Below are positions 5,395 to 62,824 of a stretch of 64,000 nucleotides of DNA, piece after piece. Source of the stretch: Patescibacteria group bacterium (GTDB lineage: Bacteria; Patescibacteriota; Patescibacteriia; UBA1558; GWA2-36-10). The stretch is taken from NCBI GenBank assembly GCA_041662585.1, contig JBAZSG010000006.1, forward strand, positions 4,155-68,154. Direction: 5' to 3'. Made by a program: the position numbers and the translations under genes. Position 1 is the first letter of the stretch; every line of letters begins with the position of its first letter. The notes under the pieces are model-generated. The model worked only from the letters and a program-made list of their open reading frames with translations, was not told the DNA's origin and searched no databases.

Positions 5395-5976
5395 ATGTTT
5401 TGGGTATTTTTTACGTCTATATATATGAAGAGTATAAAAGGTAATTTACAAGAAAGAATAGCTTTTTTAAAGCTTAGATCAGGAGATTCTGATGCTTTTG
5501 CCTTTTTTTATGATAAATATGTTAAAAGTATTTATCGTTTCGTATATATCAGGGTAGGAAGCAAGCAAGTTGCTGAAGATTTGACTCAAGATATTTTTCT
5601 CAAGATTTGGCAACATTTGGTAGATAAAAAGCATGTCAAAAGTTTTCAGGCTTTTATATTCCGTATAGCTCGCAACACAGTGGTGGATCACTATAGATAT
5701 TCCAAACAAGAACTGCCACTAGAGTATATGCCAGAGTCAGTTGAAATGATAGAAGGCGTGATATTGTCCAGTGACAAAAATATTGATGCTGACATATTGC
5801 TCAAAGAAATAGGCAAATTAAAATCAGAATATCAAGAAGTATTATTACTCAAATATGTTGAAGACATGTCAATAGAAGATATAGCACATGTCATGAGTAA
5901 AGATAAAAATAATATTAGAGTTACTATTCACAGAGCTCTAAATAAATTAAAAACAATTACCAAAGGTAAAAAATAA
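5395..5976 (+). CDS. RNA polymerase sigma-70 family, ECF subfamily sigma factor
   Basis: Region-2-like 'DLTQDIFLKIWQHL' and region-4 HTH 'SIEDIAHVMSKDKNNIRVTIHRALNKLK'; true start may be the internal Met at 5425. Confidence 0.8.
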   Translation: MFWVFFTSIYMKSIKGNLQERIAFLKLRSGDSDAFAFFYDKYVKSIYRFVYIRVGSKQVAEDLTQDIFLKIWQHLVDKKHVKSFQAFIFRIARNTVVDHYRYSKQELPLEYMPESVEMIEGVILSSDKNIDADILLKEIGKLKSEYQEVLLLKYVEDMSIEDIAHVMSKDKNNIRVTIHRALNKLKTITKGKK

Positions 5977-5991
5977 TCGCGTAATAAACTC

Positions 5992-7428
5992 ATGAGTAGT
6001 TTAATAAAAAATATTTCTCGTATCAAAAATCTGGAAAGTGTACAACCAGACAGAAGATGGGAGAAAACAACCAAATTTGATCTATTGGATGAAATATCAT
6101 CTCAAAATAGACTGATGCAAGCCTACAAATTATCAACCTCCCAAAAGGTAGATCTTTTTGTGATGCGTTTTTTCAATCGCGTTGCTCCATCAATGTCCAA
6201 AGTTTTGGCAACATTTTTGGTATTTATGATGTTTTTTGGCGTAAATATGGCTGCTCAGGCTTCTGTACCAGGTGAAACATTGTGGCCAGTAAAGAGATCT
6301 ATTGAAGAAGCAGAAATATCTCTTACTTTTAGTCCAGTCAAAAAGACAGAAGTCCACATAAAACATGTCAATGAAAGGTTAGATGAAATTGATAAAATTT
6401 TAGAACCAGCTGTCAATGTAGAACCAGCTGTCAAAGAACAAAAAAATAAAGCTATTAAACAAGCTATTACTCATTTAGAAAAAGATGTTACTTCTGTTGA
6501 TAGCTCACTCAAGATTGTAAAAAGTGAAAAAGAAGCTTTGGAAGTAGTAGAACTAGTCAAAAAAGTGACTGATGCTACCAAAGAAGTAGATAATAAATTA
6601 AGCGAAAAAAAGCTAACAGCTAAAAATATTGATAATCAAGCACTGGACGAAGCCTTGACTCAAGCCAAAGTATTGAATAAACAAGTTAAGAAAGCGGCTG
6701 TAGCTGTAGCCATTGAAGTACACGAAGAATTACAAAAAACAACTGAAGATAAGGCTGCTTCACTAGTAGTCAAGACTACTAGTACGCCTAGTGAAATATC
6801 TGAGATTAGTAAGGTAGGACCTTTTGAAACAAGTACTACAGATATAGTAGACAAGGGAGCTAGTAAAGAATTATCTTCAGAAGAAGTAGCCACTATCAAT
6901 AATATAGTCAAAGAAATCTTAGTCTCAGAAATAGCTGATCTTTCAGCTGAAGTAAAAGATGTCAAACAAAAAGTAGAAATAGTCAATTCAGAAGCTTTAA
7001 AGGCTATAACTAAAGATGCTTTAGGAGAAAAAGATAAAACAAAAATCATCAGCTCTGAGCTAGATGAAATAGAGATAATAAAAAAAGAAAGTTCGGAAGA
7101 TAGTGAAGTAGTATTGACCGAAGCCAAAGTATTGTTAGACAGTGGAATGTTTAAAGATGCTTTTGAAAAAGTATCTGAGGCCAATGAAAAATATCAAAAA
7201 GCCGAAGTGACTTTGGAAAAGATTGGTCAGGCTATCAAAGTAAATGAAGCTAGTGATGCAGCTGCCAAAGCTCTTGAAAATCAAAAACCACCTGTTGTTG
7301 AATTGCCAATTAGTACTACTACCACTTCTACAATAGAAAAAACACCTGATATTGAAATCATAAAATCTTCTGCTATTGATATCAAGGATACTGAAATAAT
7401 CAAAGAATCAGAAGAAGTGACAAAATAA
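5992..7428 (+). CDS. DUF5667-type putative anti-sigma factor: single-pass membrane protein with long acidic coiled-coil ectodomain
   Basis: Immediately downstream of the ECF sigma gene; TM helix (VLATFLVFMMFFGVNMAA) followed by 'PGETLWPVKRSIEEAE', which resembles the DUF5667 motif; remainder is E/K-rich. Confidence 0.5.
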   Translation: MSSLIKNISRIKNLESVQPDRRWEKTTKFDLLDEISSQNRLMQAYKLSTSQKVDLFVMRFFNRVAPSMSKVLATFLVFMMFFGVNMAAQASVPGETLWPVKRSIEEAEISLTFSPVKKTEVHIKHVNERLDEIDKILEPAVNVEPAVKEQKNKAIKQAITHLEKDVTSVDSSLKIVKSEKEALEVVELVKKVTDATKEVDNKLSEKKLTAKNIDNQALDEALTQAKVLNKQVKKAAVAVAIEVHEELQKTTEDKAASLVVKTTSTPSEISEISKVGPFETSTTDIVDKGASKELSSEEVATINNIVKEILVSEIADLSAEVKDVKQKVEIVNSEALKAITKDALGEKDKTKIISSELDEIEIIKKESSEDSEVVLTEAKVLLDSGMFKDAFEKVSEANEKYQKAEVTLEKIGQAIKVNEASDAAAKALENQKPPVVELPISTTTTSTIEKTPDIEIIKSSAIDIKDTEIIKESEEVTK

Positions 7429-7855
7429 ATAAAATTTTTATAGTTCATTTTAATAATTAATTTATAATCCCATCGCGACGTGGCTGATTTAGTCCATCAG
7501 GGGCGTCATATAGTCTGAGGATATTTAGTTTTTGTTCCCATGCACGAATGAAAACTAGTATCCCTAGATTATCGCCTAATCGCGCGCGAAATAGGGATTA
7601 GTTTATAACTTGCTATAGAGGGTTATAAACACAACACTCTTGTCGTTGGGCCCTGCCCGGCACAAGATTTTAATTAACGTTCCTAGACAATCTATTTTTT
7701 CAGATGGATTTGTGAGCCTATTTATTTAGTTAACCAGAAAGGTCGGCATGGCAATGCCGTGGGTGCTAGATATAATAGTCTGAGCCTCCATATGGTGGAG
7801 ACGTTTGCAAATTGTCTTATTAAATAATGTTTAGAGAACTTTTAAAACCGAACAA
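7429..7855 (+). other. GC-enriched structured intergenic region: candidate long 5' leader or unclassified ncRNA upstream of the S-layer-like gene
   Basis: 427 bp with no ORF; contains several strong hairpins (ATCCCTA..TAGGGAT 7560-7600; GTTTATAAC..GTTATAAAC 7601-7630; GGCAT-GGCA-ATGCC 7746-7759; CTCCA..TGGAG 7785-7799) and a TATAAT at 7771-7776. Confidence 0.3.
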
Positions 7856-10800
7856 ATGAGTTTAATAAAAAAACTTTTTGTGTTTTCCTTGGTAATTACC
7901 ACTGTCCTATCATTTAATCCTTTTAATGTTAAGGCAGCCGGTAGTTATGGAGCAGGATCACTTCTTGCTCTACAAGGCGTACAAGGTTCAGCCGTTTATT
8001 ATATTGGTTCAGATGGAATGAAATATGTCTTCCCTGATTCAAAAACATATGCTACTTGGTATGACAATTTTAACGATGTTGTTAGAGTTGACGTAGCTGA
8101 GTTAGACATGTATCCAGACGGCGGAGCTATGACTTATCGTGCTGGTACCAAATTGGTAACTCACGAAAACACAGCCAAAATTTATGCCGTAGGTCCTGGT
8201 GGATTACTTCACTGGATTCCTACAGCAGAAATAGCTGAAGATTTATATGGAGCAAACTGGGCATCTAGAGTACTAGACGTAATTCCAGGATACTTCTCTT
8301 CAAGCTATGTTTCAGGCGCTGATTTATCTGATATGTATCCAAGTGGTACATTATTGCAAATGGGCGAAAACATGTACTATGTAGATGGTACAAGTGTAAG
8401 ACCTTTTGCTGATGCTGATGCCTTTGAAGCAAACAACTTTGCTTATGGTAACTTAATCACAGTTACTAGCGTTTCAGCTTATACATCAGGTACATCAATC
8501 ACTGGTGAAGAGACTGCCCTATCTGGCTTTATGCCAGCTGAAGGCAGTGGTCCAGTTGTCTCAGGTGGCAACTTGACAGTAGCTATTGCTAGTGGCACTC
8601 CAGCCTCTGGAATGGTTGTAGGTGGTGCAGCTCGCGTACCATTTACCAAATTAGCTTTGACTACTGGTAGTCAAGGTGTAACCATTGATACAATGGTTGT
8701 ACAAAGAGGCGGAATTGGTCAAGATGGTGCTTTTGATAGTATCGATATTTTAGATGGTACTACAATGCTTCCATATGATGCCAATTCAAAAACCTTCAAT
8801 TCAAATCACCAAGCTACATTTACCAAAGATTTGGTAATTCCAGCTAATACCACTAAGTATGTTTACTTAGCTGCTAATATGGTTTCTCAGACTACTATTG
8901 GTACTTCTTATGCTGGAGAAGCTCCAGCTCTAGGATTAGCAGCCGTTACTTTAGTTGGAAGTGGTTCAGTAGGCGGTTCATTACCAGTTTATGGTAATAC
9001 TCAAACCTTAAATGGAACCATTGCTATTGGTACCGTTGGAATCCAAAGAGGTTCTTATGGAAATGCCACTTCAACTTCAATTGAAGTTGGTAAAACTGAT
9101 TACACTTTCTTCTCATTTCAAGTAAATCCTTCTTCTGTAGAAGATGTAACTTTCAACCAAGTAGCTGTTTACCAAGAAGGTACAGCAGTATTGGGTGATG
9201 ACATCACCAACATTGAACTGTTAAAAGATGGTGTGAAGGTTGCTGATGGTGTTGTCGATGGTAAGTACGTTACTTTTAGTGGTATTAATACTGTTATTCC
9301 AAAAGGACAAACTTATCAATATGCAGTTAGAGCTGATGTTGACGGCGGTTCACTTAGAACAGTAGACTTGGGTATATATCGCACTACCGATTTATTGGTA
9401 ACTGGTAATACTTATGGTTATAACATCACTCCAAGTTATAGTGGAGCTGGTTCATCATATACTAGTTCTTCAGTTTATAACAAACCAGTATTAAGTGATA
9501 ATCAATTTACCATGTCAAATGGTACTTTGACTGTTGAAAGAGGTAATATAGTTGGTTCTGAAAACATTACCCTTGGTAATGATCAAACATTAGGATCATT
9601 CAAATTCACTGTAAAAGGCGAAGAAATTGATGTTACTGCTTTGACTTTGACAATAGCTTCTTCTGCAACCGCTACTATTGAAGATGCTTTGGCTGGTGTA
9701 AAATTAGTTGATAGCAACGGTACTACCGTAGCTGGTCCAACTGATGTTACCAACAATGCACTTACAGTTGCCTTTACTGACACATTTACTTTACCAGTTG
9801 GTGAAAGTGAATATAAAGTAGTAGGTAATATTGCTAACAATGGTGGTTGGGCAGCTAATGATACTATTTATGCTAGCATCAGTACTCCAGCAACAGCTAT
9901 TACAGCCACTGGTGTTATTACTGGCAATAGTATTACTTCTGGTACAGCCACAGCTATTAATACAAATACCCAGACAGTTAAAGCTGCTTCTTTGACCGTA
10001 ACCAAAGATACCCTACCAACTACAAGCACCGTTATCGCTGGTGCTCAAGATGTAGTATTGGGTTCTTGGACATTTGATACTACAAATTCAGGAGAAGATA
10101 TCAGAATTACATCTTTGGTATTTGCTGCTTCTTCAACAGATGCTACTAACCTAACTGTATATAATGGCGTTTATGGTAGTGGTGGAGTTGCAATGAGCCC
10201 AATTAATTCTGCTCCAACAGTTGCTGATGGTGCTTCTTCAACCTTTGCTTTTGATGAACCAATAGTTATTACCAAGAAGACAAGTAAAACTATCCAATTG
10301 GTAGGTGATATCAATAGTAGTGCTACTACTGGACAAAGTGCTCAATTTGGTTTGACCGATGTAACAGCAGCTACCAACGCTTCAGTTGTAGCTTATGGTG
10401 TAACTACTGGAAATAGAGCTACATTATCTCTTACTGCTGATAATGGTGCTACACTTACTTATTCAGCCGCTGGCGCTGTTACTGTAAGTACATACAACAA
10501 TCCATCAAATGCTATTGCTAGAGCAGGTGCTACTGGCGTTACATTTGGCAGTGTCAAGCTAGATGCTCTATATGAAAATCTAGATTTAGACCAATTGATT
10601 GTTTATGTTGCTGACGGTGCTTTGACTGGTACAGCTACTGGTAATTATGCTGATGTCAACAAAGTATACATTTATGATGGTACTACTTTGTTAGCTTCAA
10701 ATGCTATCCCATCAACTGGTTTGTATACATTCAACTTTGACAATGGTACTTTGACTGTCCCTGTAGACGGTTCAAAGACTTTGACAATCAAAGCTGACTT

Positions 10801-11623
10801 GAGTACTATCAGTCAAGTAAACGATGTACCAGGTACTCCAGCTGCCGACATTGCCTTTGGCTTTGGTGGTACAGATGGATTTAAGTTTACCGGTACTTCT
10901 TCAAATACCACAGCTACAGAGACCTACAATGGTTCTACATCTTCAGCTATGATATTGCATAAAGCATTACCAACTGTTACCGTTGCTCAAAGTAGTGCTG
11001 CTTTAGGTGCTGCTACTACAATGGCTAACGGTGCTTCAGACTTGTATGCTTTCAAAGTCACTGCTGATGCAGCAGGTAGTGAAGTATTACTATACAGAGC
11101 TACATTTGAAATCGCTACTGGTGGTGGCGCAACCGTTACAGTTACCAACTGTTATCTAAAGGATAGTGATGGTAATACTGTAGGTGCTGCTGCTACTCCA
11201 ACTGATGTTGATGGTGCTCCATCTTATGTATCATATGTATTCAACAATCCTGACATCTCAGCTGGTAATACCAAAGAAGCCTTGATGGTTGCTGCTGGTT
11301 CTAGCGAGACTTATAAGTTGAATTGTACTTTAGCTAACGCTGCTTCAGGAGATAATATAGCTGTTGCCTTAGTAGGTGACGTTGCTTCTTCTACTCTAGC
11401 TGCTAGCTTTGGCACCCCATCTGCTACTGGTCAAAACAATGCAGATGCTTGGGCCGCTGTAGACAAAGGAAACTTTGTATGGTCAGATAACTTCAAGAAC
11501 CGTGGCCTAGCCACAGACGGTGCTAATGCTACTGCCTGGGGACAATGGTACAATGGTTACTTGGTATCTGGTCTAGGTACAAGTGGTACTACTACTGCTT
11601 ATACAATTGGTTGGTCAAGCTAA
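7856..11623 (+). CDS. large secreted Thr/Ser/Ala/Gly-rich cell-surface protein (S-layer-like) with signal peptide
   Basis: 1255 aa; signal peptide (MSLIKKLFVFSLVITTVLSFNPFNVKAAG); three N-terminal ~55-aa repeats (YYIGSDGMKYVFPD.. / IYAVGPGGLLHWIP.. / MYYVDGTSVRPFAD..) then long beta-rich T/S/A/G/V/N segments with almost no Cys/His/Met. Codon usage visibly differs from neighbours (GGT/GCT/ACT-rich). Confidence 0.6.
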   Translation: MSLIKKLFVFSLVITTVLSFNPFNVKAAGSYGAGSLLALQGVQGSAVYYIGSDGMKYVFPDSKTYATWYDNFNDVVRVDVAELDMYPDGGAMTYRAGTKLVTHENTAKIYAVGPGGLLHWIPTAEIAEDLYGANWASRVLDVIPGYFSSSYVSGADLSDMYPSGTLLQMGENMYYVDGTSVRPFADADAFEANNFAYGNLITVTSVSAYTSGTSITGEETALSGFMPAEGSGPVVSGGNLTVAIASGTPASGMVVGGAARVPFTKLALTTGSQGVTIDTMVVQRGGIGQDGAFDSIDILDGTTMLPYDANSKTFNSNHQATFTKDLVIPANTTKYVYLAANMVSQTTIGTSYAGEAPALGLAAVTLVGSGSVGGSLPVYGNTQTLNGTIAIGTVGIQRGSYGNATSTSIEVGKTDYTFFSFQVNPSSVEDVTFNQVAVYQEGTAVLGDDITNIELLKDGVKVADGVVDGKYVTFSGINTVIPKGQTYQYAVRADVDGGSLRTVDLGIYRTTDLLVTGNTYGYNITPSYSGAGSSYTSSSVYNKPVLSDNQFTMSNGTLTVERGNIVGSENITLGNDQTLGSFKFTVKGEEIDVTALTLTIASSATATIEDALAGVKLVDSNGTTVAGPTDVTNNALTVAFTDTFTLPVGESEYKVVGNIANNGGWAANDTIYASISTPATAITATGVITGNSITSGTATAINTNTQTVKAASLTVTKDTLPTTSTVIAGAQDVVLGSWTFDTTNSGEDIRITSLVFAASSTDATNLTVYNGVYGSGGVAMSPINSAPTVADGASSTFAFDEPIVITKKTSKTIQLVGDINSSATTGQSAQFGLTDVTAATNASVVAYGVTTGNRATLSLTADNGATLTYSAAGAVTVSTYNNPSNAIARAGATGVTFGSVKLDALYENLDLDQLIVYVADGALTGTATGNYADVNKVYIYDGTTLLASNAIPSTGLYTFNFDNGTLTVPVDGSKTLTIKADLSTISQVNDVPGTPAADIAFGFGGTDGFKFTGTSSNTTATETYNGSTSSAMILHKALPTVTVAQSSAALGAATTMANGASDLYAFKVTADAAGSEVLLYRATFEIATGGGATVTVTNCYLKDSDGNTVGAAATPTDVDGAPSYVSYVFNNPDISAGNTKEALMVAAGSSETYKLNCTLANAASGDNIAVALVGDVASSTLAASFGTPSATGQNNADAWAAVDKGNFVWSDNFKNRGLATDGANATAWGQWYNGYLVSGLGTSGTTTAYTIGWSS

Positions 11624-11670
11624 ATAATTCTTATTTAGTGAGATTAATTAATTCAAAGATATACAGAAAC

Positions 11671-11699
11671 ACACCTCTCCCCATTTTGGGGAGGGGTGT
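11671..11699 (+). terminator. GC-rich hairpin after the S-layer-like gene (ACACCTCTCCCC-ATTTT-GGGGAGGGGTGT)
   Basis: 12-bp stem (one G-U) with 5-nt loop, 48 bp after the stop; no clean T-run on the + strand. Confidence 0.45.
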
Positions 11700-11762
11700 T
11701 GTCAAAAACAAGTAAATATAATAGAATTAGCTAGTAATTTTATAGATTAAATTTTTAATACA

Positions 11763-12449
11763 ATGAAAAAAACATACCAAAATTTGATTATTGGAGGCTT
11801 AATATTGTTGGTTATAGCTTTTATATTTGCTTGGACAGCATATTTTAAACAAAACTCAACAAAAATTATAATCCCTGATATAAGCAAAATTTATACTATA
11901 GAAGATTTTTCAGACTCTAGTTTAGACGAAGAGAGTTTACAAAACCTTATCAAGCGTTTAAATAATGATCAAAAATATTTAAGAGAAGGCACCTATGAAA
12001 GCGAAGTACAACGTTATGATATTTGGGTGGATATTGCCAATTTAAAATTTGCTTTAGAAGATTATGATAGTGCAGTAGAGATATGGGAATACGCTATTAC
12101 TTTAAATAATTCAAATCCATTGGCCTTCGCCAATTTGGCCAATTATTATAAATCATTTGCCAATGATTATGAAAAAGCAGCTTATTATTATGATCAAGCT
12201 ATTCAAAAAGATAACGTTGGTTATTATTTTGATTATGAAGCCTATGCAGAATTATATATAAGGTATTTGCCAGAAGATCCACATAGAGTAGAAATTATTA
12301 TGCTTGATGGTGTAGCTAAAGCAGTTGGGAATACTAAATTAAATTTTTATTTGTTTCTTTATAATTATTGGAATGAAAAAGGAGATTCAAATAAGACAGC
12401 ACAATATAAAGATGAAATTTTAAAAATAGACGCTAATTATCAATTTTAA
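11763..12449 (+). CDS. membrane-anchored TPR-repeat protein
   Basis: 228 aa; N-terminal TM (LIIGGLILLVIAFIFAWTAYF); TPR-like repeats (WEYAITLNNSNPLAFANLANYY.., AAYYYDQAIQKD..); first gene of a three-gene operon. Confidence 0.5.
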   Translation: MKKTYQNLIIGGLILLVIAFIFAWTAYFKQNSTKIIIPDISKIYTIEDFSDSSLDEESLQNLIKRLNNDQKYLREGTYESEVQRYDIWVDIANLKFALEDYDSAVEIWEYAITLNNSNPLAFANLANYYKSFANDYEKAAYYYDQAIQKDNVGYYFDYEAYAELYIRYLPEDPHRVEIIMLDGVAKAVGNTKLNFYLFLYNYWNEKGDSNKTAQYKDEILKIDANYQF

Positions 12450-12451
12450 TT

Positions 12452-14737
12452 ATGGAAGTGTTAAAAAAAGTTTTGAATAAAGCAATTTGGTTGTTGATTA
12501 TAGGCGCTTTAGTGGTTCCACTTTATGTTGATAGTGATTTTTTCTTTCCTTATATTTTTAGCAAGACATTAGCCTTTAGAATAATAATAGAAATATTATT
12601 ATTGCTATGGTTAATTTATATATTTATAAAGAAAAATAAAATTAATATTGATTGGTTGACAATCACATTTTTTGTGATGTTGGTTTTTATGTATGTTTCG
12701 TCCATTTTTGGGCACAATTTTTCTTTGAGCTTTTGGAGTACAATAGAAAGAGGAGAGGGATTGTTGCTTTGGACGCATTTATTTTTTTATTTTTTTATAT
12801 TACACAATTTTATTCAAGAAAAAAAACAATGGTTGTTGTTGTTTGATGTATTCTTTATTATTGCGCAAGTAGTAGCTGTGGTTGGACTATTGCAGTATGC
12901 TGGAGTAGACTTTATCAATCACTCAGGAGTAGCTGAAGAGCGCATAGCTTCGACTATAGGCAATGCAGCGTATCTAGCTGGTTATTTATTGTTTGCTTTT
13001 TTTATTGGTTTATATTTGATGTTTAAACGTCAAAATATTTGGTTGAGCTTGTATTATTCTATAGCGATTTTGATAGATATTTTTATCGTAATTCAGACTG
13101 GCACTAGGGGAGCATTTTTGGCCTTTATTATTAGTATTTTATTATTTGTTGTATATAATATTTTTAAACTGGCCAATAAAAAAATTAAGTATTATGTATT
13201 ATTTTTAGGTATTTTATTTATTATTTTTTTGGCATTAGTTTTTACTAATAAAGATAGTAGTTTTATACAAAACAACTTACCTTTACGTAGAATAGTTAGC
13301 ATTTCTTTAGAAGAACGTACAGCTCAGACTCGTTTTATGGCCTGGGAGTCTGCTTGGCAAGGATTTAAAGACAGGTCTATTTTGGGACACGGGCAAGAGC
13401 ATTACGCAGTGGTTTTTAATAAATATTTTAATCCAGAAATATATTCTCATGTTGGTTCCAGAATTTGGTTTGATAGAGCACACAATATTTTCTTGGATCA
13501 TTTGGTGACAGGTGGATTAATAGGCTTTATTCTGTATAGTATTTTAATTATTGGACCTATCTGGCTTGTTTTAAAAAAGATATTTGTCAAAAAATCTCAT
13601 GACAATCAGGAAAACGATAATATTTGGGAAAATTTTGCTACACAAATGTTATTTTTGGCAATATTTTCTTTTATATTCCAAGGGCTTTTAGTTTTTGAAG
13701 CACTAGTCACTTATTTGCCTTTATTTTTGATAATCGCTTTTGTGATAAAAGAATATACTGAACCAAAGTTTATAATAGAAAACAGCAAAAAAGTTTTAAT
13801 ATCTTTGATGATATATGCTATTGCTTTTATACCCATAATGTATATTGTGAATATCAAAGAAGCCAAGGCAAATTTGGAGGTGATTGATGCCCTACAATTG
13901 CAATCCATAGATTATAATCAATCAATTGTGGGTTATGAAAAAGTATTGAATTATAATAGTTCTGGTACCAATGAATATCTTCGTCGAATGACAGAATATG
14001 TAGATGGTTTGATAATAAATAGAAATGTCAGTCCTTATGAAGCTACCCAATTTGTAGATATAGTAGATAAAGCATTAGAAAAAAGACTTCAGGAGTTTCC
14101 AGAAGATGTAGCCACTTATTTGTTATTTATGAGACACTACAACTACACTTATGTACTTGATCCAGATAGATTGTACAAAGTTGAAGAATTGGGCAAAAAA
14201 GCTTTGGAATATAGTCCAACTAGACCACAGATATATTATGAATTGGGTTATGCCGATTTGTATTTATATCAGAGAATGATAGAAGATGCTAATACTGATG
14301 AAGCTAAAAAATATCAGGTAGGAACAGTGGACAATTTTCAAAAAGCTATCGATTTAAATAATGATGTGATGGAGTCTTATATCAATATGATTATGGTATT
14401 ATTGACTAGTGATCAGTCAGATAAAGTGCAATCTTATATAGATATTATGGAGAATATGGGCATAGATTATAAAAAAGAGTCATCATTATCTAGAATGGCA
14501 AACTCAGCTTTACATGCTGAAGACTATAAATGGGCTGCTTATTTTAGTGAGTTATTGATAAAAGTAGTGCCAGAAAATCCTGACTATTATATAAATACTG
14601 CCTTAGCTCTAGCATATTTAGGCGATTATGATAGAGCTATTGAAATAGCTGAAGAGATAAAGAATTTTGGTGGGCAATATATTATTCAATCAGAAGAATT
14701 TATTAAAGATATAAAATCAGGAAAATTAACTAAATAA
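12452..14737 (+). CDS. Wzy_C (O-antigen ligase/polymerase-like) polytopic membrane domain fused to a C-terminal TPR domain; candidate O-oligosaccharyltransferase
   Basis: 761 aa; ~450-aa multi-TM N-terminal part with the Wzy_C-like motif 'IQTGTRGAFLAFIISILLF' and a large extracytoplasmic loop containing conserved His; ~300-aa soluble C-terminal TPR region. Confidence 0.6.
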   Translation: MEVLKKVLNKAIWLLIIGALVVPLYVDSDFFFPYIFSKTLAFRIIIEILLLLWLIYIFIKKNKINIDWLTITFFVMLVFMYVSSIFGHNFSLSFWSTIERGEGLLLWTHLFFYFFILHNFIQEKKQWLLLFDVFFIIAQVVAVVGLLQYAGVDFINHSGVAEERIASTIGNAAYLAGYLLFAFFIGLYLMFKRQNIWLSLYYSIAILIDIFIVIQTGTRGAFLAFIISILLFVVYNIFKLANKKIKYYVLFLGILFIIFLALVFTNKDSSFIQNNLPLRRIVSISLEERTAQTRFMAWESAWQGFKDRSILGHGQEHYAVVFNKYFNPEIYSHVGSRIWFDRAHNIFLDHLVTGGLIGFILYSILIIGPIWLVLKKIFVKKSHDNQENDNIWENFATQMLFLAIFSFIFQGLLVFEALVTYLPLFLIIAFVIKEYTEPKFIIENSKKVLISLMIYAIAFIPIMYIVNIKEAKANLEVIDALQLQSIDYNQSIVGYEKVLNYNSSGTNEYLRRMTEYVDGLIINRNVSPYEATQFVDIVDKALEKRLQEFPEDVATYLLFMRHYNYTYVLDPDRLYKVEELGKKALEYSPTRPQIYYELGYADLYLYQRMIEDANTDEAKKYQVGTVDNFQKAIDLNNDVMESYINMIMVLLTSDQSDKVQSYIDIMENMGIDYKKESSLSRMANSALHAEDYKWAAYFSELLIKVVPENPDYYINTALALAYLGDYDRAIEIAEEIKNFGGQYIIQSEEFIKDIKSGKLTK

Positions 14738-17176
14738 ATGTTTTTATTATCAAATAAAGCAGAATCTTATATTGAGAAACTAATAAAAATTATTACACCA
14801 AGTATATTTTTTATTCCTTTAATATTAAATTCAAATTTTTATTTTCCTTTTGTTACACCACGGACATTTTTATTTAGACTGATAGTGACTATTATATTTG
14901 CTTTGTATTTAGTTTTGTTTGTGTTTAGTAAAGAAAAATATAAATCTTTTGGAACTAAAATACTCTTGGCGTATATAAGTTTTGCTTTTATACTTACTTT
15001 ATCTAGTCTTTTTGGTGGTGATTTTTTGTATAGTTTTTGGGAAAATGCAGAGAGAATGGAAGGTTTATTGGGTTTATATTATTTGATAGCCTTTTTTGTT
15101 GTTTTAGTAGGAGTTTATCATCGCAAAAAATCATGGCAATTTTTGCTTTATGTGACTTCTTTTGCTTCTTTTATTATAGCTTATATTGCTCTTTCTCAGG
15201 CTTTGGGCATAGATTTATTACTGGCGTCCTCTGGTGGAGCTAGAGTATCAGCTACTTTGGGCAATCCTACTTATCTGGCTGCTTATGCACTTATTCATAT
15301 GTTTTTGGCAGCTTATCTATTGCTCAAAAATACCAAAAGACGACTTTCTTTTGAATTGATAGGGTTTTATGTCTTGGATTTAATATTAATAATTTTAGAA
15401 ATATTTTCTCGAAATAAAGGAGGAGTAGGTATAATTACTATTATTTTTAGAAATATATATTTGGTGCTTTTATTTTTTGTGCCTCAGCTATTGGTACATT
15501 TAAATTTTTTCTTCCGTCATAGTAAACAAAAATTAGCTCAAATTAGTCGAAAAGCTTATTTTGTGATTTTAATAATATTAAATTTCATTGCTTTATTTAA
15601 TACTCAAACTAGGGGAGCATTGGTGGGTATTTTTGTAGCTTTGTTGACCATAGCTATATTTTTGTTGTTTAGTAAGTATGTACATAAAAAATTAAAATAT
15701 TCAGTAGTCGCTTTATTATTATTTTTTATAATTTTAGTTTCTTCTATATTTGCATTTAAGCAAAGTAGTGTAGTGCAAAACAACAATACCTTGAGAAGAG
15801 TAGCTAGTATTTCTTTGTCTGATGCTACTACCGAGACTAGGTTACTCACTTGGCAAATAAGTATACAGGGTTTTAAAGAAAAACCAATACTTGGTTGGGG
15901 AGAGGATAAATTTTATGTAGTATTTAATAAATATTTTCCAACTGCCATTTTTGAAGACTTTGGTTCACGGGTTTGGTTTGATAGACCACACAATGTATTT
16001 ATCCAACAATTGATACATGGTGGTTTGTTGGGATTATTGGCTTATTTGGCAATATTTTGGTTTGCTTTCAAAAATTTATTTAAGCATTACCAAAAAACCA
16101 AAGACGCAAAGACTATCAGTATTTTTGGTGGACTTATCATCGCCTATATGGTGCAAAACTTTTTTGTTTTTGATAGTCTCAATACCTATATTTTGGTAAT
16201 ATTGATTTTGGCTATTACAGTATTTTTGGGAAATGATAAAAAACCGATAGATACCAAGCAATCAGTGCCTAGTGACAATAAACTTTGGGTAGCTACTGGA
16301 TTGTTTTTATTCATTTTGATTAGCGGATATTATTTAAATATTCCAGCTGCTAAAGCCAACAAAGATTTTGTGGCTATTTATCAGGCTTTGAGAGCTGAGC
16401 CTGCAAATTTACCATTCAACGAAGACCTTAATCAAGAATTAATTGATATAATAAATAGTAATTATTTTGGTAAATTTGAGTTTAGACAAGTATATTCAGA
16501 ATACGCTTATTCTCTTTTACAAGTTCCCGAAGTACCAAATTACAGAAAAGGTAAAACCATGGAACTAGCTGAGGTAGAGCTCTTAAATAGTATAGACGAG
16601 CAGCCAGACAATGTCAGACATCATAGTTTTTTGGCTAATCTTTATTTGGCTGGAGCTAGACTAGATCCAAGTTATGCTCAAAAAAATATCAGATTGGTAG
16701 AAGATAAAGCTTTGATACTCAGCCCTACTAGGACACAACTTTATTATACACTGGGTAGTGCTTATATGACTTTACAAGATAGTGATAAGGCTATAGCCAA
16801 TTTTATCAAAGCCAAAGAATTGTCACCACATGTTTTTGAATCATATCAAAATTTATTTTCAGCTTATTTGAGTACAGATAGAGTAGAAGAAGCCAAACAA
16901 GTCTTGCTTGAAATAGAGGATAATACTCAGCCTTCAGCAGCAAACTATAGTAATTTGGGTCAAATACTCAATTATTTTGGCATGACAGAAGAAGCTGTTA
17001 ATTATATAGAAACAGCTACCTTAACATATCCTCAAGAGAGCAATCTTTTAATTCAGTTGCTAGTTTACTATGATAAGCTAGATGATCAAGTAAAATTGAA
17101 CGAAACATTAGCAAAATTAAAAATACTTGATCCAGCTACAGCTAGTCAAATTGAGATAAATTTAAAAAGTTTATAA
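14738..17176 (+). CDS. second Wzy_C-TPR fusion protein (paralog of 12452..14737)
   Basis: 812 aa; same architecture ('NTQTRGALVGIFVALLTIAIFLL', 'VWFDRPHNVFIQQL' compare 'IWFDRAHNIFLDHL' in the paralog); the start abuts the previous stop. Confidence 0.6.
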   Translation: MFLLSNKAESYIEKLIKIITPSIFFIPLILNSNFYFPFVTPRTFLFRLIVTIIFALYLVLFVFSKEKYKSFGTKILLAYISFAFILTLSSLFGGDFLYSFWENAERMEGLLGLYYLIAFFVVLVGVYHRKKSWQFLLYVTSFASFIIAYIALSQALGIDLLLASSGGARVSATLGNPTYLAAYALIHMFLAAYLLLKNTKRRLSFELIGFYVLDLILIILEIFSRNKGGVGIITIIFRNIYLVLLFFVPQLLVHLNFFFRHSKQKLAQISRKAYFVILIILNFIALFNTQTRGALVGIFVALLTIAIFLLFSKYVHKKLKYSVVALLLFFIILVSSIFAFKQSSVVQNNNTLRRVASISLSDATTETRLLTWQISIQGFKEKPILGWGEDKFYVVFNKYFPTAIFEDFGSRVWFDRPHNVFIQQLIHGGLLGLLAYLAIFWFAFKNLFKHYQKTKDAKTISIFGGLIIAYMVQNFFVFDSLNTYILVILILAITVFLGNDKKPIDTKQSVPSDNKLWVATGLFLFILISGYYLNIPAAKANKDFVAIYQALRAEPANLPFNEDLNQELIDIINSNYFGKFEFRQVYSEYAYSLLQVPEVPNYRKGKTMELAEVELLNSIDEQPDNVRHHSFLANLYLAGARLDPSYAQKNIRLVEDKALILSPTRTQLYYTLGSAYMTLQDSDKAIANFIKAKELSPHVFESYQNLFSAYLSTDRVEEAKQVLLEIEDNTQPSAANYSNLGQILNYFGMTEEAVNYIETATLTYPQESNLLIQLLVYYDKLDDQVKLNETLAKLKILDPATASQIEINLKSL

Positions 17177-33100: not shown

Positions 33101-33192
33101 TAATCCCCCTAAATCCCCCTTTGACAAGGGGGACTTGTCAAACTCTATTAATTAATTCTCCCCTGTCAAGGGGAGATGGCTGAAGGACAGAG
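33101..33192. repeat. cluster of GC-rich palindromes (CCCCC-TTTGACAA-GGGGG; TTGACAAG-GGGGA-CTTGTCAA; TCTCCCC-TGTCAA-GGGGAGA)
   Basis: Read directly; conspicuous C/G runs in an AT-rich intergenic spacer between two same-strand genes. Confidence 0.6.
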
Positions 33193-33198
33193 GGGTTA

Positions 33199-62396: not shown

Positions 62397-62472
62397 GCCA
62401 TCCTAGCTCAGTTGGTAGAGCAACGGTTTTGTAAACCGTCGGTCGTCGGTTCGAGTCCGACGGATGGCTCCA
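62397..62472 (+). tRNA. tRNA-Thr (anticodon TGT)
   Basis: Hand-folded cloverleaf: acceptor GCCATCC/GGATGGC, D-arm GCTC-AGTTGGTA-GAGC, anticodon arm ACGGT-TTTGTAA-ACCGT (positions 34-36 = TGT), T-arm GTCGG-TTCGAGT-CCGAC, encoded CCA. Confidence 0.85.
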
Positions 62473-62750: not shown

Positions 62751-62824
62751 GGGGGAGTATTTCAGTGGTAGAATGCTGGTCTCCAAAACCAGCGACGAGG
62801 GTTCGATTCCTTCCTCCCCTGCCA
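62751..62824 (+). tRNA. tRNA-Trp (anticodon CCA)
   Basis: Hand-folded: acceptor GGGGGAG/CTCCCCT (G1-U72 wobble), anticodon arm CTGGT-CTCCAAA-ACCAG (34-36 = CCA), T-arm GAGGG-TTCGATT-CCTTC, discriminator G, CCA encoded; closely resembles canonical bacterial tRNA-Trp. Confidence 0.8.

What the first reader, a model, noticed from the sequence alone, without database searches (positions are those of the whole stretch)
7429..7855. 427-bp GC-enriched, hairpin-dense intergenic region upstream of the S-layer-like gene: long structured leader or unannotated ncRNA
In an AT-rich genome this spacer stands out for its GC content. It contains multiple perfect inverted repeats:
- ATCCCTA-[25-nt loop]-TAGGGAT (7560-7600);
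- GTTTATAAC-[13-nt loop]-GTTATAAAC (7601-7630);
- GGCAT-GGCA-ATGCC (7746-7759);
- CTCCA-TATGG-TGGAG (7785-7799).

The motif ATAGTCTGAG occurs twice. It has no ORF.

Long stable 5' UTRs are known for S-layer mRNAs. Alternatively, a housekeeping structured RNA could sit here, since RNase P RNA, SRP RNA, 6S and tmRNA are expected somewhere in the genome and the size fits an RNase P RNA. I could not match the RNase P P4 sequences, the tmRNA tRNA-like ends or the SRP domain IV motif by eye.
Basis: seen in the sequence. Interest (0 to 1): 0.5.

Follow-up and report, generated by a model that had tools for sequence, protein, structure and literature searches.

The report
Conserved structured leader of surface-protein mRNA
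The 427-bp gap holds a previously undescribed, conserved, elaborately folded RNA of about 375 bases. In one group of ultra-small (Patescibacteria) bacteria it always sits directly in front of the gene for the large cell-surface protein, most likely as the leader of that gene's messenger RNA.

Summary
Window 7429-7855 is the largest ORF-free spacer in a very compact, 32% G+C Patescibacteria (Komeilibacteria-like) genome. Its core has 40.6% G+C, and the + strand folds far better than shuffled sequence (z = -6.1).

I recovered 18 distinct homologues from genomes and metagenomes. Each lies immediately upstream of the orthologue of the 1255-aa secreted protein wherever downstream DNA is available. 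All of them fold into the same two-domain architecture:
- D1, 7465-7600, is a three-way junction.
- D2, 7679-7839, is a long closed multi-helix domain that ends 16 nt before the ATG.

Covariation supports both domains. In D2, 39 of 59 pairs carry compensatory changes; in D1, 24 of 50 do. About 85% of cells are paired, against 35-47% when the partners are slid.

No Rfam family, tmRNA or terminator matches, so the RNase P, SRP, 6S and tmRNA ideas are rejected. The suggested -10 at 7771-7776 is not conserved.

The best reading is a new cis-acting structured 5' leader with its own promoter box (7449-7460). It probably stabilises or controls the mRNA of the main surface protein. It carries invariant elements (AAUCGCGCGCGA, AGAAAGGUCG) that look like recognition sites for an unknown factor. 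The mechanism is inferred, not shown.

The parts
7449..7460 (+). Conserved box TTTAATAATTAA, proposed -10 region of the leader's own promoter (AATAAT at 7452-7457). The predicted transcription start is about 7464. A second promoter-like site, GTGACA 7417-7422 / TATAGT 7439-7444, would start at about 7451.
   Evidence: The box is kept in nearly all homologues, 5-20 nt before P1. In L024 a hairpin carrying the conserved UAGUC loop sits between the box and P1, so the box lies upstream of transcribed RNA. The consensus scan is. This is inferred; no transcript data exist.
7465..7600 (+). Domain D1, a three-way junction closed by P1 (UAAUCCC 7465-7471 with GGGAUUA 7594-7600) and P1b (UCGCG 7473-7477 with CGCGA 7585-7589).
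   Evidence: The same fold appears in the MFE of all 16 homologues folded singly. On a plain MAFFT alignment 84.8% of cells pair, against 35-47% when slid. 24 of 50 pairs have changes on both sides, and 0 of 500 shuffles reach the observed value.
7484..7500 (+). P2 hairpin CUGAU-UUAGUCC-AUCAG. The loop motif UAGUC is conserved while the stem varies.
   Evidence: All 6 stem pairs show changes on both sides. The loop is kept in 13 of 18 members and is relocated 5' of P1 in L024.
7510..7572 (+). P3, a long hairpin. Its base is nearly invariant in sequence (AUAGGUUGAGGGUA / UAUCCCUAACUUAU in most members). Its tip varies in length, with 40-70-nt insertions in L006, L021, L022 and L034.
   Evidence: 27 pairs, 90.6% paired, 13 with changes on both sides.
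7567..7589 (+). The most conserved stretch of the element: the 3' end of P3 plus the junction, ...UUAUCGCC-UAAUCGCGCGCGA. AAUCGCGCGCGA at 7578-7589 is invariant in all 18 members and is partly unpaired.
   Evidence: Invariant columns. The pattern built on this stretch retrieved 17 true loci from metagenomes.
7601..7630 (+). M1, a lineage-specific hairpin (GUUUAUAAC / GUUAUAAAC, loop UUGCUAUAGAGG). It is present in 6 close relatives and absent or replaced in the others.
   Evidence: There is A-U to G-C covariation in the stem.
7637..7668 (+). M2, a variable hairpin (CUCUUG...CAAGAU) whose stem sequences differ but stay complementary.
   Evidence: Compensatory changes at alignment columns 292-325.
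7679..7839 (+). Domain D2. The closing helix Pa (GUUCCUAGACA 7679-7689 with UGUUUAG-A-GAAC 7828-7839) is followed by stacked helices Pb, Pc and Pd. These lead to a junction bearing hairpins Pe, Pf and Pg.
   Evidence: Covariance model R1 hits once per locus at 78-163 bits. 85.7% of cells pair against 36-45% when slid. 39 of 59 pairs have changes on both sides, and 0 of 500 shuffles reach the observed value (the alignment was fitted to the model).
7731..7745 (+). Pe hairpin, U(A)ACC-AGAAA-GGUCG. The loop and the 3' strand AGAAAGGUCG are nearly invariant, and the 5' strand changes only one-sidedly. GGUCG is also present 94-172 nt before the ATG in orthologous leaders of four other lineages that lack D1 and D2.
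   Evidence: It is the only G+C-rich 5-mer shared by six independent leaders (0 of 2000 shuffles). It is also the only non-tRNA intergenic GGTCG in the window.
7745..7758 (+). Pf hairpin GGCAU-GGCA-AUGCC. The stem sequence is replaced wholesale in relatives (UCCUG/CAGGA, UCCC/GGGA, UCCCGCC/GGCGGGA).
7786..7800 (+). Pg hairpin CUCCAU-AUG-GUGGAG. It is also replaced with compensation (CUCUGU/ACAGAG, CCGGAA/UUCCG, CCUGC/GCAGG) and carries a 40-nt insertion in L022.
7840..7858 (+). A/U-rich linker UUUUAAAACCGAACAA plus the start codon of the 1255-aa gene. There is no Shine-Dalgarno sequence, as for almost all genes of this genome.
7856..11623 (+). The gene served by the leader: a 1255-aa secreted protein with a signal peptide. 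In the model of a 44%-identical orthologue it has a conserved N-terminal domain of about 230 aa and about 8 beta-sandwich domains. It belongs to a Patescibacteria-wide family with no Pfam or NCBIfam match.
11669..11702 (+). G+C-rich perfect stem-loop 46 nt after the stop codon, a probable terminator or 3' stabiliser that ends the transcription unit. It is followed by a canonical TTGTCA-N17-TATAAT promoter for the next gene.
   Evidence: An equivalent 10-15-bp stem of different sequence follows the orthologue in all 9 loci examined.

Best explanation
The spacer encodes a new family of structured RNA, on the + strand, that forms the 5' untranslated leader (about 390 nt) of the mRNA for the large secreted surface protein.

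Proposed mechanism (inferred):
1. Transcription starts just downstream of the conserved TTTAATAATTAA box.
2. The first transcribed bases are immediately locked into helix P1 of domain D1.
3. A second closed domain, D2, ends 16 nt before the start codon.
4. The transcription unit ends at a strong stem-loop after the stop codon.

A base-paired 5' end, a compact body and a 3' hairpin would shield this very abundant, monocistronic mRNA from 5'-end-dependent and exonucleolytic decay. The A/U-rich start region is left outside the folded domains.

The sequence-invariant, partly unpaired elements are AAUCGCGCGCGA in D1, the UAGUC loop of P2 and AGAAAGGUCG in hairpin Pe. They most likely serve as docking sites for a trans-acting factor that sets stability or translation. 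Candidates are a protein, or the 30S subunit as in STAB-SD.

Shown here: conservation, structure, strand, linkage to the gene, and the absence of a terminator or any known family. Inferred: the start site, co-transcription, stabilisation and factor binding.
For: Strand and stability of the fold:
- The + strand folds at z = -6.1 against -2.5 for the - strand.
- Many helices contain conserved G-U pairs, which would be A-C mismatches on the other strand.

Conservation:
- There are 18 distinct homologues.
- Leader identity is 67-87%, tracking the 57-74% identity of the N-terminal 230 aa of the protein. The rest of the protein falls to 29-36% in some members.

Linkage to the gene:
- In every true hit with downstream DNA, the orthologous gene starts 260-320 nt after the D1 motif.
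- The upstream gene can differ: in L022 a tRNA gene lies upstream of the leader.

Structure:
- Each homologue folded alone gives the same architecture.
- Covariation: D2 has 39 of 59 pairs and D1 24 of 50 pairs with double changes, about 85% paired against 35-47% when slid, and 0 of 500 shuffles reach the observed values.

The transcription unit:
- No terminator-like site lies between the RNA and the ATG.
- P1 begins 5-20 nt after the conserved -10-like box.
- A strong 3' stem-loop follows the gene in all 9 orthologous loci, and the next gene has its own TTGTCA/TATAAT promoter.

Precedents from the literature:
- S-layer mRNAs are stabilised by structured 5' UTRs that leave the RBS exposed (PMC10221546, section 6).
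- 5' stabilisers against RNase J include the STAB-SD element at -129 (PMC4113751, section 3.2).
Against: - There are no transcript data. The start site, co-transcription with the ORF and any processing are all unknown.
- A passive stabiliser needs only a 5'-terminal hairpin. Some 375 nt, with invariant junction sequences kept across lineages, is much more than this role requires.
- Predicted accessibility of the start region is not clearly higher than that of the rest of the leader: unpaired probability is 0.22-0.69 against about 0.3.
- The -35 region of the proposed promoter is not recognisably conserved.
- The downstream protein is only inferred to be an S-layer or major surface protein. Foldseek gives generic Ig-like arrays with TM < 0.2.
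- The D2 covariation was counted on an alignment fitted to the model.
Confidence: 0.55

Rival explanations
1. Regulatory leader: riboswitch-like or autogenously controlled. D1 and/or D2 bind a small ligand, an envelope-related protein or the surface protein itself. Binding switches translation or decay of the mRNA, so that output of the main envelope protein follows demand.
For: - The invariant, partly single-stranded junction sequences and loops (AAUCGCGCGCGA, UAGUC, AGAAAGGUCG) sit in a background of freely covarying stems, which is the pattern of ligand or protein pockets.
- The size and multi-junction complexity exceed those of known stabilisers.
- An alternative hairpin (7560-7566 with 7592-7598), mutually exclusive with P1 and P3, can form in 90% of homologue cells.
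- The gene cluster is always preceded by an ECF sigma factor and a DUF5667 protein, a putative envelope-signalling pair.
Against: - No expression platform was found. There is no terminator or antiterminator, and no conserved pairing covers the start codon.
- The alternative hairpin has no covariation: 63 of 500 shuffles do as well.
- No Rfam riboswitch resembles it.
- D1 lies more than 250 nt from the start codon.
Confidence: 0.25
2. STAB-SD-like stabiliser. The purine-rich AGAAAGG(UCG) of hairpin Pe, about 115 nt before the ATG, pairs with the 3' end of 16S rRNA. A parked 30S subunit would then block 5'-to-3' decay, as in Bacillus thuringiensis cry3A.
For: - AGAAAGG is complementary to a CCUUUCU-3' tail of the Firmicutes type.
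- Its position, -115 (range -94 to -172 in other lineages), mirrors STAB-SD at -129 (PMC4113751).
- It is not followed by a conserved ORF. An 11-codon ORF in the window is not kept in L004 or L028 (read directly from the sequences).
- In the short leaders (L007, L035) the element lies near the 5' end.
Against: - The deeply conserved core is GGUCG, not GGAGG.
- This genome hardly uses Shine-Dalgarno pairing at all: only about 4 of 50 genes have any SD-like tetramer.
- The GG is base-paired within Pe.
- The organism's 16S 3' end could not be examined.
Confidence: 0.1
3. An independent non-coding RNA with a trans function. It would be a housekeeping RNA such as RNase P, SRP, 6S or tmRNA, or a new large ncRNA released by processing, that merely neighbours the gene.
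For: The size (about 375 nt), multi-domain fold and sequence invariance are typical of functional ncRNAs. Leader-derived sRNAs are known in other bacteria (general knowledge).
Against: - No Rfam match at E <= 10 in the window or the homologues, and no tmRNA.
- Linkage to one gene is strict and orientation is fixed, with D2 always ending 15-25 nt before the ATG.
- No terminator follows it.
- It is absent from the Falkowbacteria, Buchananbacteria and Doudnabacteria orthologous spacers, and the window holds no second copy.
Confidence: 0.07
4. DNA-level element. The conservation would reflect promoter and operator sites for the neighbouring ECF sigma factor or other regulators, not an RNA structure.
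For: An ECF sigma/DUF5667 pair lies upstream in conserved synteny. CGCGCGCG is an odd, invariant G+C-rich block in an A+T-rich genome.
Against: - There are dozens of compensatory double changes.
- Hairpins are replaced wholesale yet stay complementary.
- Conserved G-U pairs work on one strand only.
- No AAC-N16-17-CGT-type ECF promoter was seen (inspection).
Confidence: 0.03

Closest known systems
5' untranslated leaders of S-layer gene mRNAs (for example Lactobacillus slpA; PMC10221546)
   Same: It lies between the promoter and the start of a very abundant secreted surface-protein gene and forms stable secondary structure. The proposed role is mRNA stabilisation with the start region outside the folded part. 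The unit is monocistronic and has a 3' hairpin.
   Different: Known examples are a single stem-loop of roughly 100-200 nt with little sequence conservation between genera. This leader is about 375 nt, with two multi-helix domains, more than 100 covariation-supported base pairs and invariant junction sequences. The S-layer identity of the protein is not proven, and no half-life data exist.
STAB-SD and other Gram-positive 5' stabilisers (cry3A, aprE, ermC, hbs; PMC4113751, PMC3997798)
   Same: A purine-rich SD-like element (AGAAAGG) lies about 115 nt upstream of the start codon and is not used for initiation. The presumed function is to block 5'-to-3' decay.
   Different: The conserved core is GGUCG rather than GGAGG. 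It is embedded in a hairpin inside a large domain, and the host genome barely uses SD pairing.
Large, ornate bacterial RNAs of unknown or recently found function (OLE, GOLLD, ROOL, raiA motif; Rfam)
   Same: It is more than 300 nt with multiple junctions, strong covariation, a narrow phylogenetic range and invariant unpaired nucleotides.
   Different: There is no sequence or structure match to any of them. Unlike them, this RNA is fixed at a set distance in front of one particular ORF, with no terminator.
Long autoregulatory leaders bound by a protein (rne 5' UTR, ribosomal-protein operon leaders) - from general knowledge
   Same: It is a long conserved structured 5' UTR whose sequence-specific hairpins would be protein-binding operators.
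   Different: No binding protein is known or predictable here. No mimicry of an rRNA site was recognised, and the regulated gene encodes a secreted structural protein.

Membership tests
Bacterial RNase P RNA (Rfam RF00010/RF00011) | Match to the covariance model, with conserved P4 strands (GGAAAGUCC ... ACAGAA-CCGGCUUA) | tested here: not met
   No hit even at E <= 10 on 7300-8000 or in six homologous loci. The two ATAGTCTGAG copies are direct repeats, not complementary ones.
tmRNA / SRP RNA / 6S RNA | tRNA-like ends plus a tag ORF (tmRNA); the domain IV motif (SRP); a closing stem, central bubble and terminal loop (6S); or a match to the Rfam models | tested here: not met
   ARAGORN finds only two tRNAs in the window. 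Rfam gives no hit at the gathering threshold or at E <= 10. D2 ends in a multi-branch junction, not a 6S-type loop.
Housekeeping RNA in general | Present in all related genomes, independent of gene context | tested here: not met
   It is always in front of one gene. It is absent from the orthologous spacers of L007, L008, L035 and L036 by covariance-model and nhmmer search.
S-layer mRNA 5' UTR stabiliser | Located between the promoter and the start codon of the surface-layer gene and co-transcribed with it | tested here: inconclusive
   The position, the lack of a terminator and a conserved upstream -10-like box fit. No transcript mapping is available.
S-layer mRNA 5' UTR stabiliser | Stable 5' secondary structure | tested here: met
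   z = -6.1, and both domains are supported by covariation. P1 involves the first predicted transcribed bases.
S-layer mRNA 5' UTR stabiliser | Ribosome-binding region left exposed | tested here: inconclusive
   The linker lies outside D2 in the consensus fold. Partition-function unpaired probabilities of -20..-1 are 0.22-0.69, not clearly above the leader average.
S-layer mRNA 5' UTR stabiliser | Lengthens mRNA half-life or raises expression | not testable with these tools
   This needs decay measurements or reporter fusions.
S-layer mRNA 5' UTR stabiliser | The downstream gene encodes the S-layer protein | tested here: inconclusive
   For: a signal peptide, 1255 aa, a composition rich in T, S, A, G and V, and beta-sandwich arrays in the AF2 model of an orthologue (pLDDT 80). 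Neighbouring TPR, Wzy_C and PMT genes also fit. Against: no Pfam, NCBIfam or PDB sequence match, and Foldseek hits are generic Ig-like arrays.
Riboswitch | An expression platform: a terminator/antiterminator, or conserved sequestration of the RBS or start codon | tested here: not met
   No terminator-like site in 7200-8100. No conserved helix covers the start region.
Riboswitch | A conserved ligand-binding aptamer | not testable with these tools
   Invariant junction nucleotides exist. No known aptamer class matches, and ligand binding needs experiment.
STAB-SD element | Sequence complementary to the 3' end of the organism's 16S rRNA, far upstream of the start and not initiating translation | tested here: inconclusive
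   AGAAAGG would pair with a CCUUUCU tail, and it lies about 115 nt upstream with no conserved ORF. The 16S rRNA of these genomes was not available, and SD use in the genome is almost nil.

The most novel reading that the evidence does not exclude
The element is a new class of large, ornate RNA specific to Patescibacteria that does more than protect the message. It would be a sensing or catalytic device that sets the output of the cell's main surface protein: a very large riboswitch, a protein- or ribosome-docking regulator, or a self-processing leader. The GGUCG-containing hairpin would be an ancient operator shared by the surface-protein leaders of several Patescibacteria orders.
Probability: 0.3. 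Interest if true: 0.75.

Novelty: new variant of a known kind. Interest (0 to 1): 0.55.

Why it matters
Patescibacteria (CPR) are a huge, almost uncultured branch of bacteria with tiny genomes and an attached, host-dependent lifestyle. Their surface proteins are the interface with the host, yet almost nothing is known about how their genes are regulated.

- **Cost to the genome.** A genome this compact spends about 400 bp on an RNA that is conserved about as well as the most conserved part of the protein it precedes. That argues for an important function.
- **Rarity.** Bacterial RNAs longer than 300 nt with multi-junction, covariation-supported folds are rare, and have repeatedly turned out to have sophisticated biochemistry.
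- **Immediate use.** The family can be added to RNA databases, which improves annotation of CPR genomes. It is also a marker for the start of the major surface-protein transcription unit.
- **Experimental handle.** The invariant GGUCG element offers a concrete way to find the first post-transcriptional regulator in this phylum.

Tried and rejected
- **Rfam.** The gathering threshold on the whole window, E <= 10 on 7300-8000 and E <= 1 on six homologous loci gave only tRNAs and junk (sau-41 at E = 4.8, on the wrong strand).
- **tmRNA.** ARAGORN found none.
- **Terminator or attenuator.** None was found. The Pg hairpin followed by GUUUG is not kept as a U-tract in relatives.
It is not conserved and lies inside D2 helices.
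- **TATAAT at 7463-7468 as the promoter.** It overlaps the 5' strand of P1, which covaries, so it is more likely RNA.
- **Leader peptides or uORFs.** ATG-GCA-ATG-CCG... after the SD-like AGAAAGG gives 11 codons in the window. It is lost in L004 and L028, where the Pf stem is replaced. A 17-codon ORF at 7549 is absent in L003.
- **SD-in-trans or altered anti-SD.** The genome has almost no SD motifs, and GGTCG never precedes other genes.
- **RBS accessibility.** Inconclusive.
- **Covariance model for D1.** D1 was assessed on the MAFFT alignment instead.
- **nhmmer profile of the whole leader against distant orthologous spacers.** No hits. The D2 model gave only one weak, correctly placed hit, in L038 (20 bits, E = 0.008).
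- **Tertiary partners for the UAGUC and AGAAA loops.** None was found by eye.
- **Identifying the protein.** It has no Pfam, NCBIfam or PDB sequence hit. Fold search gave only generic Ig-like arrays.
- **Literature.** A search found no description of this RNA.
Full report
**Setting.** The window comes from a 702-kb contig of a Patescibacteria (CPR) bacterium. The closest named relative is a Candidatus Komeilibacteria MAG. The genome is 31.9% G+C and tightly packed. The finding is the 427-bp spacer 7429-7855. It lies between a DUF5667 protein gene (5992-7428), itself preceded by an ECF sigma factor gene (5395-5976), and a 1255-aa ORF (7856-11623).

**Checking the observation.**
- All four inverted repeats and the duplicated ATAGTCTGAG are present, at or within one base of the stated coordinates.
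- No ORF of 40 aa or more lies inside the spacer.
- The core 7465-7841 is 40.6% G+C. Other spacers are mostly 13-33%; only two short ones (1-93 and 33128-33198) are richer.
- The + strand folds to -133 kcal/mol, against -94 +/- 6.4 for dinucleotide shuffles (z = -6.1). The - strand gives z = -2.5.
- The other large 'gaps' in the window are filled by 100-140-aa ORFs, so this is the largest truly non-coding stretch.

**Known families.** Rfam 15 finds only the two tRNAs of the window at gathering thresholds. It finds nothing credible at E <= 10 in 7300-8000 and nothing in the leaders of six homologous loci. ARAGORN finds no tmRNA. The scan finds no intrinsic terminator in 7200-8100.

**Homologues.**
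- Two species-representative genomes carry the orthologous spacer at 80% mean identity, while the flanking DUF5667 protein is only 55-64% identical.
- The downstream protein belongs to a family of about 1200-1300-aa proteins spread across Patescibacteria (177 hits, no Pfam domain in most).
- Fetching the contigs of graded orthologues and one metagenome scan with a pattern from the most conserved block gave 18 distinct copies of the RNA. The scan returned 25 loci, of which 8 are chance hits in G+C-rich coding DNA.
- In every true hit with enough downstream DNA, the orthologous gene begins 260-320 nt after the motif.
- The RNA is present even where the full-length proteins are only 37-43% identical (L017, L021, L024, L037, L040).
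- Leader identity (67-87%) tracks that of the N-terminal 230 aa (57-74%). The remaining ~1000 aa can drop to 29-36%. So a conserved 5' module (leader, signal peptide, N-terminal domain) is joined to a fast-changing body, as is common for surface-layer genes.

**Structure.** Folded one at a time, all homologues adopt the same plan.
- *D1 (7465-7600)* is a three-way junction. It comprises P1 (7465-7471 with 7594-7600) and P1b (UCGCG with part of the invariant AAUCGCGCGCGA). It also has hairpin P2, with a conserved UAGUC loop, and the long hairpin P3. The base of P3 is almost invariant, and its tip takes insertions of 40-70 nt in some members.
- *The middle* holds zero to two lineage-specific hairpins: in the window M1 7601-7630 and M2 7637-7668.
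- *D2 (7679-7839)* is closed by Pa (GUUCCUAGACA with UGUUUAG-A-GAAC). It continues through Pb, Pc and Pd to a junction with three hairpins: Pe (UGACC-AGAAA-GGUCG, nearly invariant), Pf and Pg. The stems of Pf and Pg are replaced wholesale but stay complementary.

*Covariation counts:*

| Domain | Alignment | Cells paired | Paired when slid | Pairs with double changes | Shuffles reaching observed |
|---|---|---|---|---|---|
| D2 | fitted to model | 85.7% | 36-45% | 39 of 59 | 0 of 500 |
| D1 | plain MAFFT, not fitted | 84.8% | 35-47% | 24 of 50 | 0 of 500 |

Conserved G-U pairs make the fold specific to the + strand.

It competes with P1 and P3, so it is at best an alternative conformer.

**Boundaries.**
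- A box TTTAATAATTAA (7449-7460; variants TTTTATAATTAA, TTAAATAATTAA and others) is kept 5-20 nt before P1.
- In L024 a hairpin carrying the UAGUC loop is inserted between the box and P1. The box therefore lies upstream of transcribed sequence, and I read it as the -10 region.
- P1 covaries, so the TATAAT at 7463-7468 is RNA rather than promoter.
- The proposed -10 at 7771-7776 is neither conserved nor compatible with D2.
- D2 ends 15-25 nt before the ATG in all members. It is followed by an A/U-rich linker without an SD, which is normal here: almost none of about 50 genes in the window has an SD-like motif.
- After the stop codon comes a perfect G+C-rich stem-loop (11669-11702), then a canonical TTGTCA-N17-TATAAT promoter for the next gene. 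An equivalent stem of different sequence follows the orthologue in all nine loci checked.
- The picture is a monocistronic unit: promoter, 390-nt leader, ORF, 3' hairpin.

**Distribution.**
- The D2 model hits once per locus and finds no second copy in the window.
- With filters off it finds the full element in L037. It gives a weak but correctly placed hit in L038, a more distant Komeilibacteria genome with a 617-nt leader (20 bits, E = 0.008).
- It finds nothing in the Falkowbacteria (L007, 145-bp spacer), P0024 (L035, 128 bp), Buchananbacteria (L036, 275 bp) or Doudnabacteria (L008) spacers. nhmmer agrees.
- All of those leaders nevertheless contain GGUCG(A), preceded by purines, 94-172 nt before the ATG. 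It is the only G+C-rich 5-mer shared by the six independent leaders (0 of 2000 shuffles) and the only non-tRNA intergenic GGTCG in the window.
- In L007 and L038 it sits in a recognisable Pe-Pf-like module.
- This suggests an older, widespread core element around which the Komeilibacteria-type leader grew.

**The protein.**
- It has a signal peptide and is rich in Thr, Ser, Ala, Gly and Val.
- It has no Pfam, NCBIfam or PDB sequence match.
- An AlphaFold model of a 44%-identical orthologue (pLDDT 80) shows an N-terminal alpha/beta domain followed by about eight beta-sandwich domains.
- Foldseek returns only generic Ig-like arrays such as PrgB, alpha-2-macroglobulin and integrins, with TM < 0.2.
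- Conserved neighbours are TPR proteins and Wzy_C (O-antigen-ligase-like) or PMT-type glycosyltransferase membrane proteins.
- A major, possibly glycosylated, surface or S-layer protein is plausible but unproven.

**Mechanism.**
- *Best supported:* a cis-acting leader that gives this mRNA a base-paired 5' end, a compact body and a 3' hairpin, and hence long life and high yield. This follows the pattern of S-layer mRNA leaders (PMC10221546) and Gram-positive 5' stabilisers (PMC4113751, PMC3997798).
- *What this does not explain:* the size and the invariant unpaired blocks. I therefore consider binding of a trans-factor likely, and I give substantial weight to a genuinely regulatory role.
- *STAB-SD-like 30S docking at AGAAAGG:* attractive because of its position, but weakened by the GGUCG core and the near absence of SD use.
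- *Independent ncRNA or DNA-level readings:* unlikely, for the reasons listed under the rivals.

**Novelty.** No database family and no paper in the searchable library describes the element. Its kind, a structured leader of an abundant surface-protein mRNA, is known. Its scale and conservation are not.

Noticed in passing
window 5395-17176; L005, L006, L035, L036, L039, L040: The gene order ECF sigma factor, DUF5667 protein, about 1250-aa surface protein, TPR protein, Wzy_C (O-antigen-ligase-like) membrane protein is conserved across several Patescibacteria lineages. It looks like an envelope module with its own signalling pair.
   Followed up: partly
window, all ~50 ORF starts: Almost no gene has a Shine-Dalgarno-like motif. 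Start codons are preceded by A/U-rich sequence, so this lineage appears to initiate translation largely without SD pairing.
   Followed up: partly
window 7856-11623 versus P0039, P0043, P0059, P0072, P0078: The surface protein evolves in a modular way. The leader, signal peptide and first ~230 aa stay 57-74% identical, while the remaining ~1000 aa fall to 29-36% in some lineages with near-identical leaders. This suggests replacement or diversifying selection of the exposed part.
   Followed up: partly
L007 2384-2410; L035 ~1404-1412; L036 ~1326-1336; L038 ~1392-1440; L008 ~2363-2375: A purine-rich GGUCGA element lies 94-172 nt before the ATG in the leaders of orthologues that otherwise lack the window's RNA. 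Its reader is unknown.
   Followed up: partly
window 11669-11735: A perfect G+C-rich stem-loop follows the surface-protein gene, and after it comes a canonical TTGTCA-N17-TATAAT promoter (conserved in L005 and L006) for the downstream TPR gene. Classical sigma-70 promoters therefore exist in this genome.
   Followed up: partly
L038 884-1500: A 617-nt, G+C-richer, very stably folded leader (-242 kcal/mol) precedes a distant orthologue. Only its last ~150 nt resemble D2 weakly, and the rest is unassigned.
   Followed up: partly
L008 1846-2010: In the Doudnabacteria locus the spacer starts with a tRNA-like sequence, followed by a G+C-rich segment (GGGUUCCCUGCCCGCCACCGG...). The segment is unlike the rest of the A+T-rich spacer and was not identified.
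   Followed up: no
window 33128-33198: A short 48% G+C spacer between two minus-strand genes holds two strong hairpins (UCUCCCCU-UGAC-AGGGGAGA and UUUGACAAG-UCCCC-CUUGUCAAA; z = -4.2 on the minus strand). It is probably a terminator or small structured element.
   Followed up: no
window 7749-7784: An 11-codon ORF (AUG GCA AUG CCG UGG GUG CUA GAU AUA AUA GUC UGA) starts 5 nt after the SD-like AGAAAGG. A similar peptide is possible in L027 and L003 but not in L004 or L028, so it is probably a by-product of the Pf hairpin sequence.
   Followed up: yes
window 62397-62472 and 62751-62824; L022 704-776: tRNA-Thr(UGU) and tRNA-Trp(CCA) genes lie near the end of the window. In L022 a tRNA gene lies upstream of the leader, so the leader's upstream context is not fixed.
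   Followed up: no
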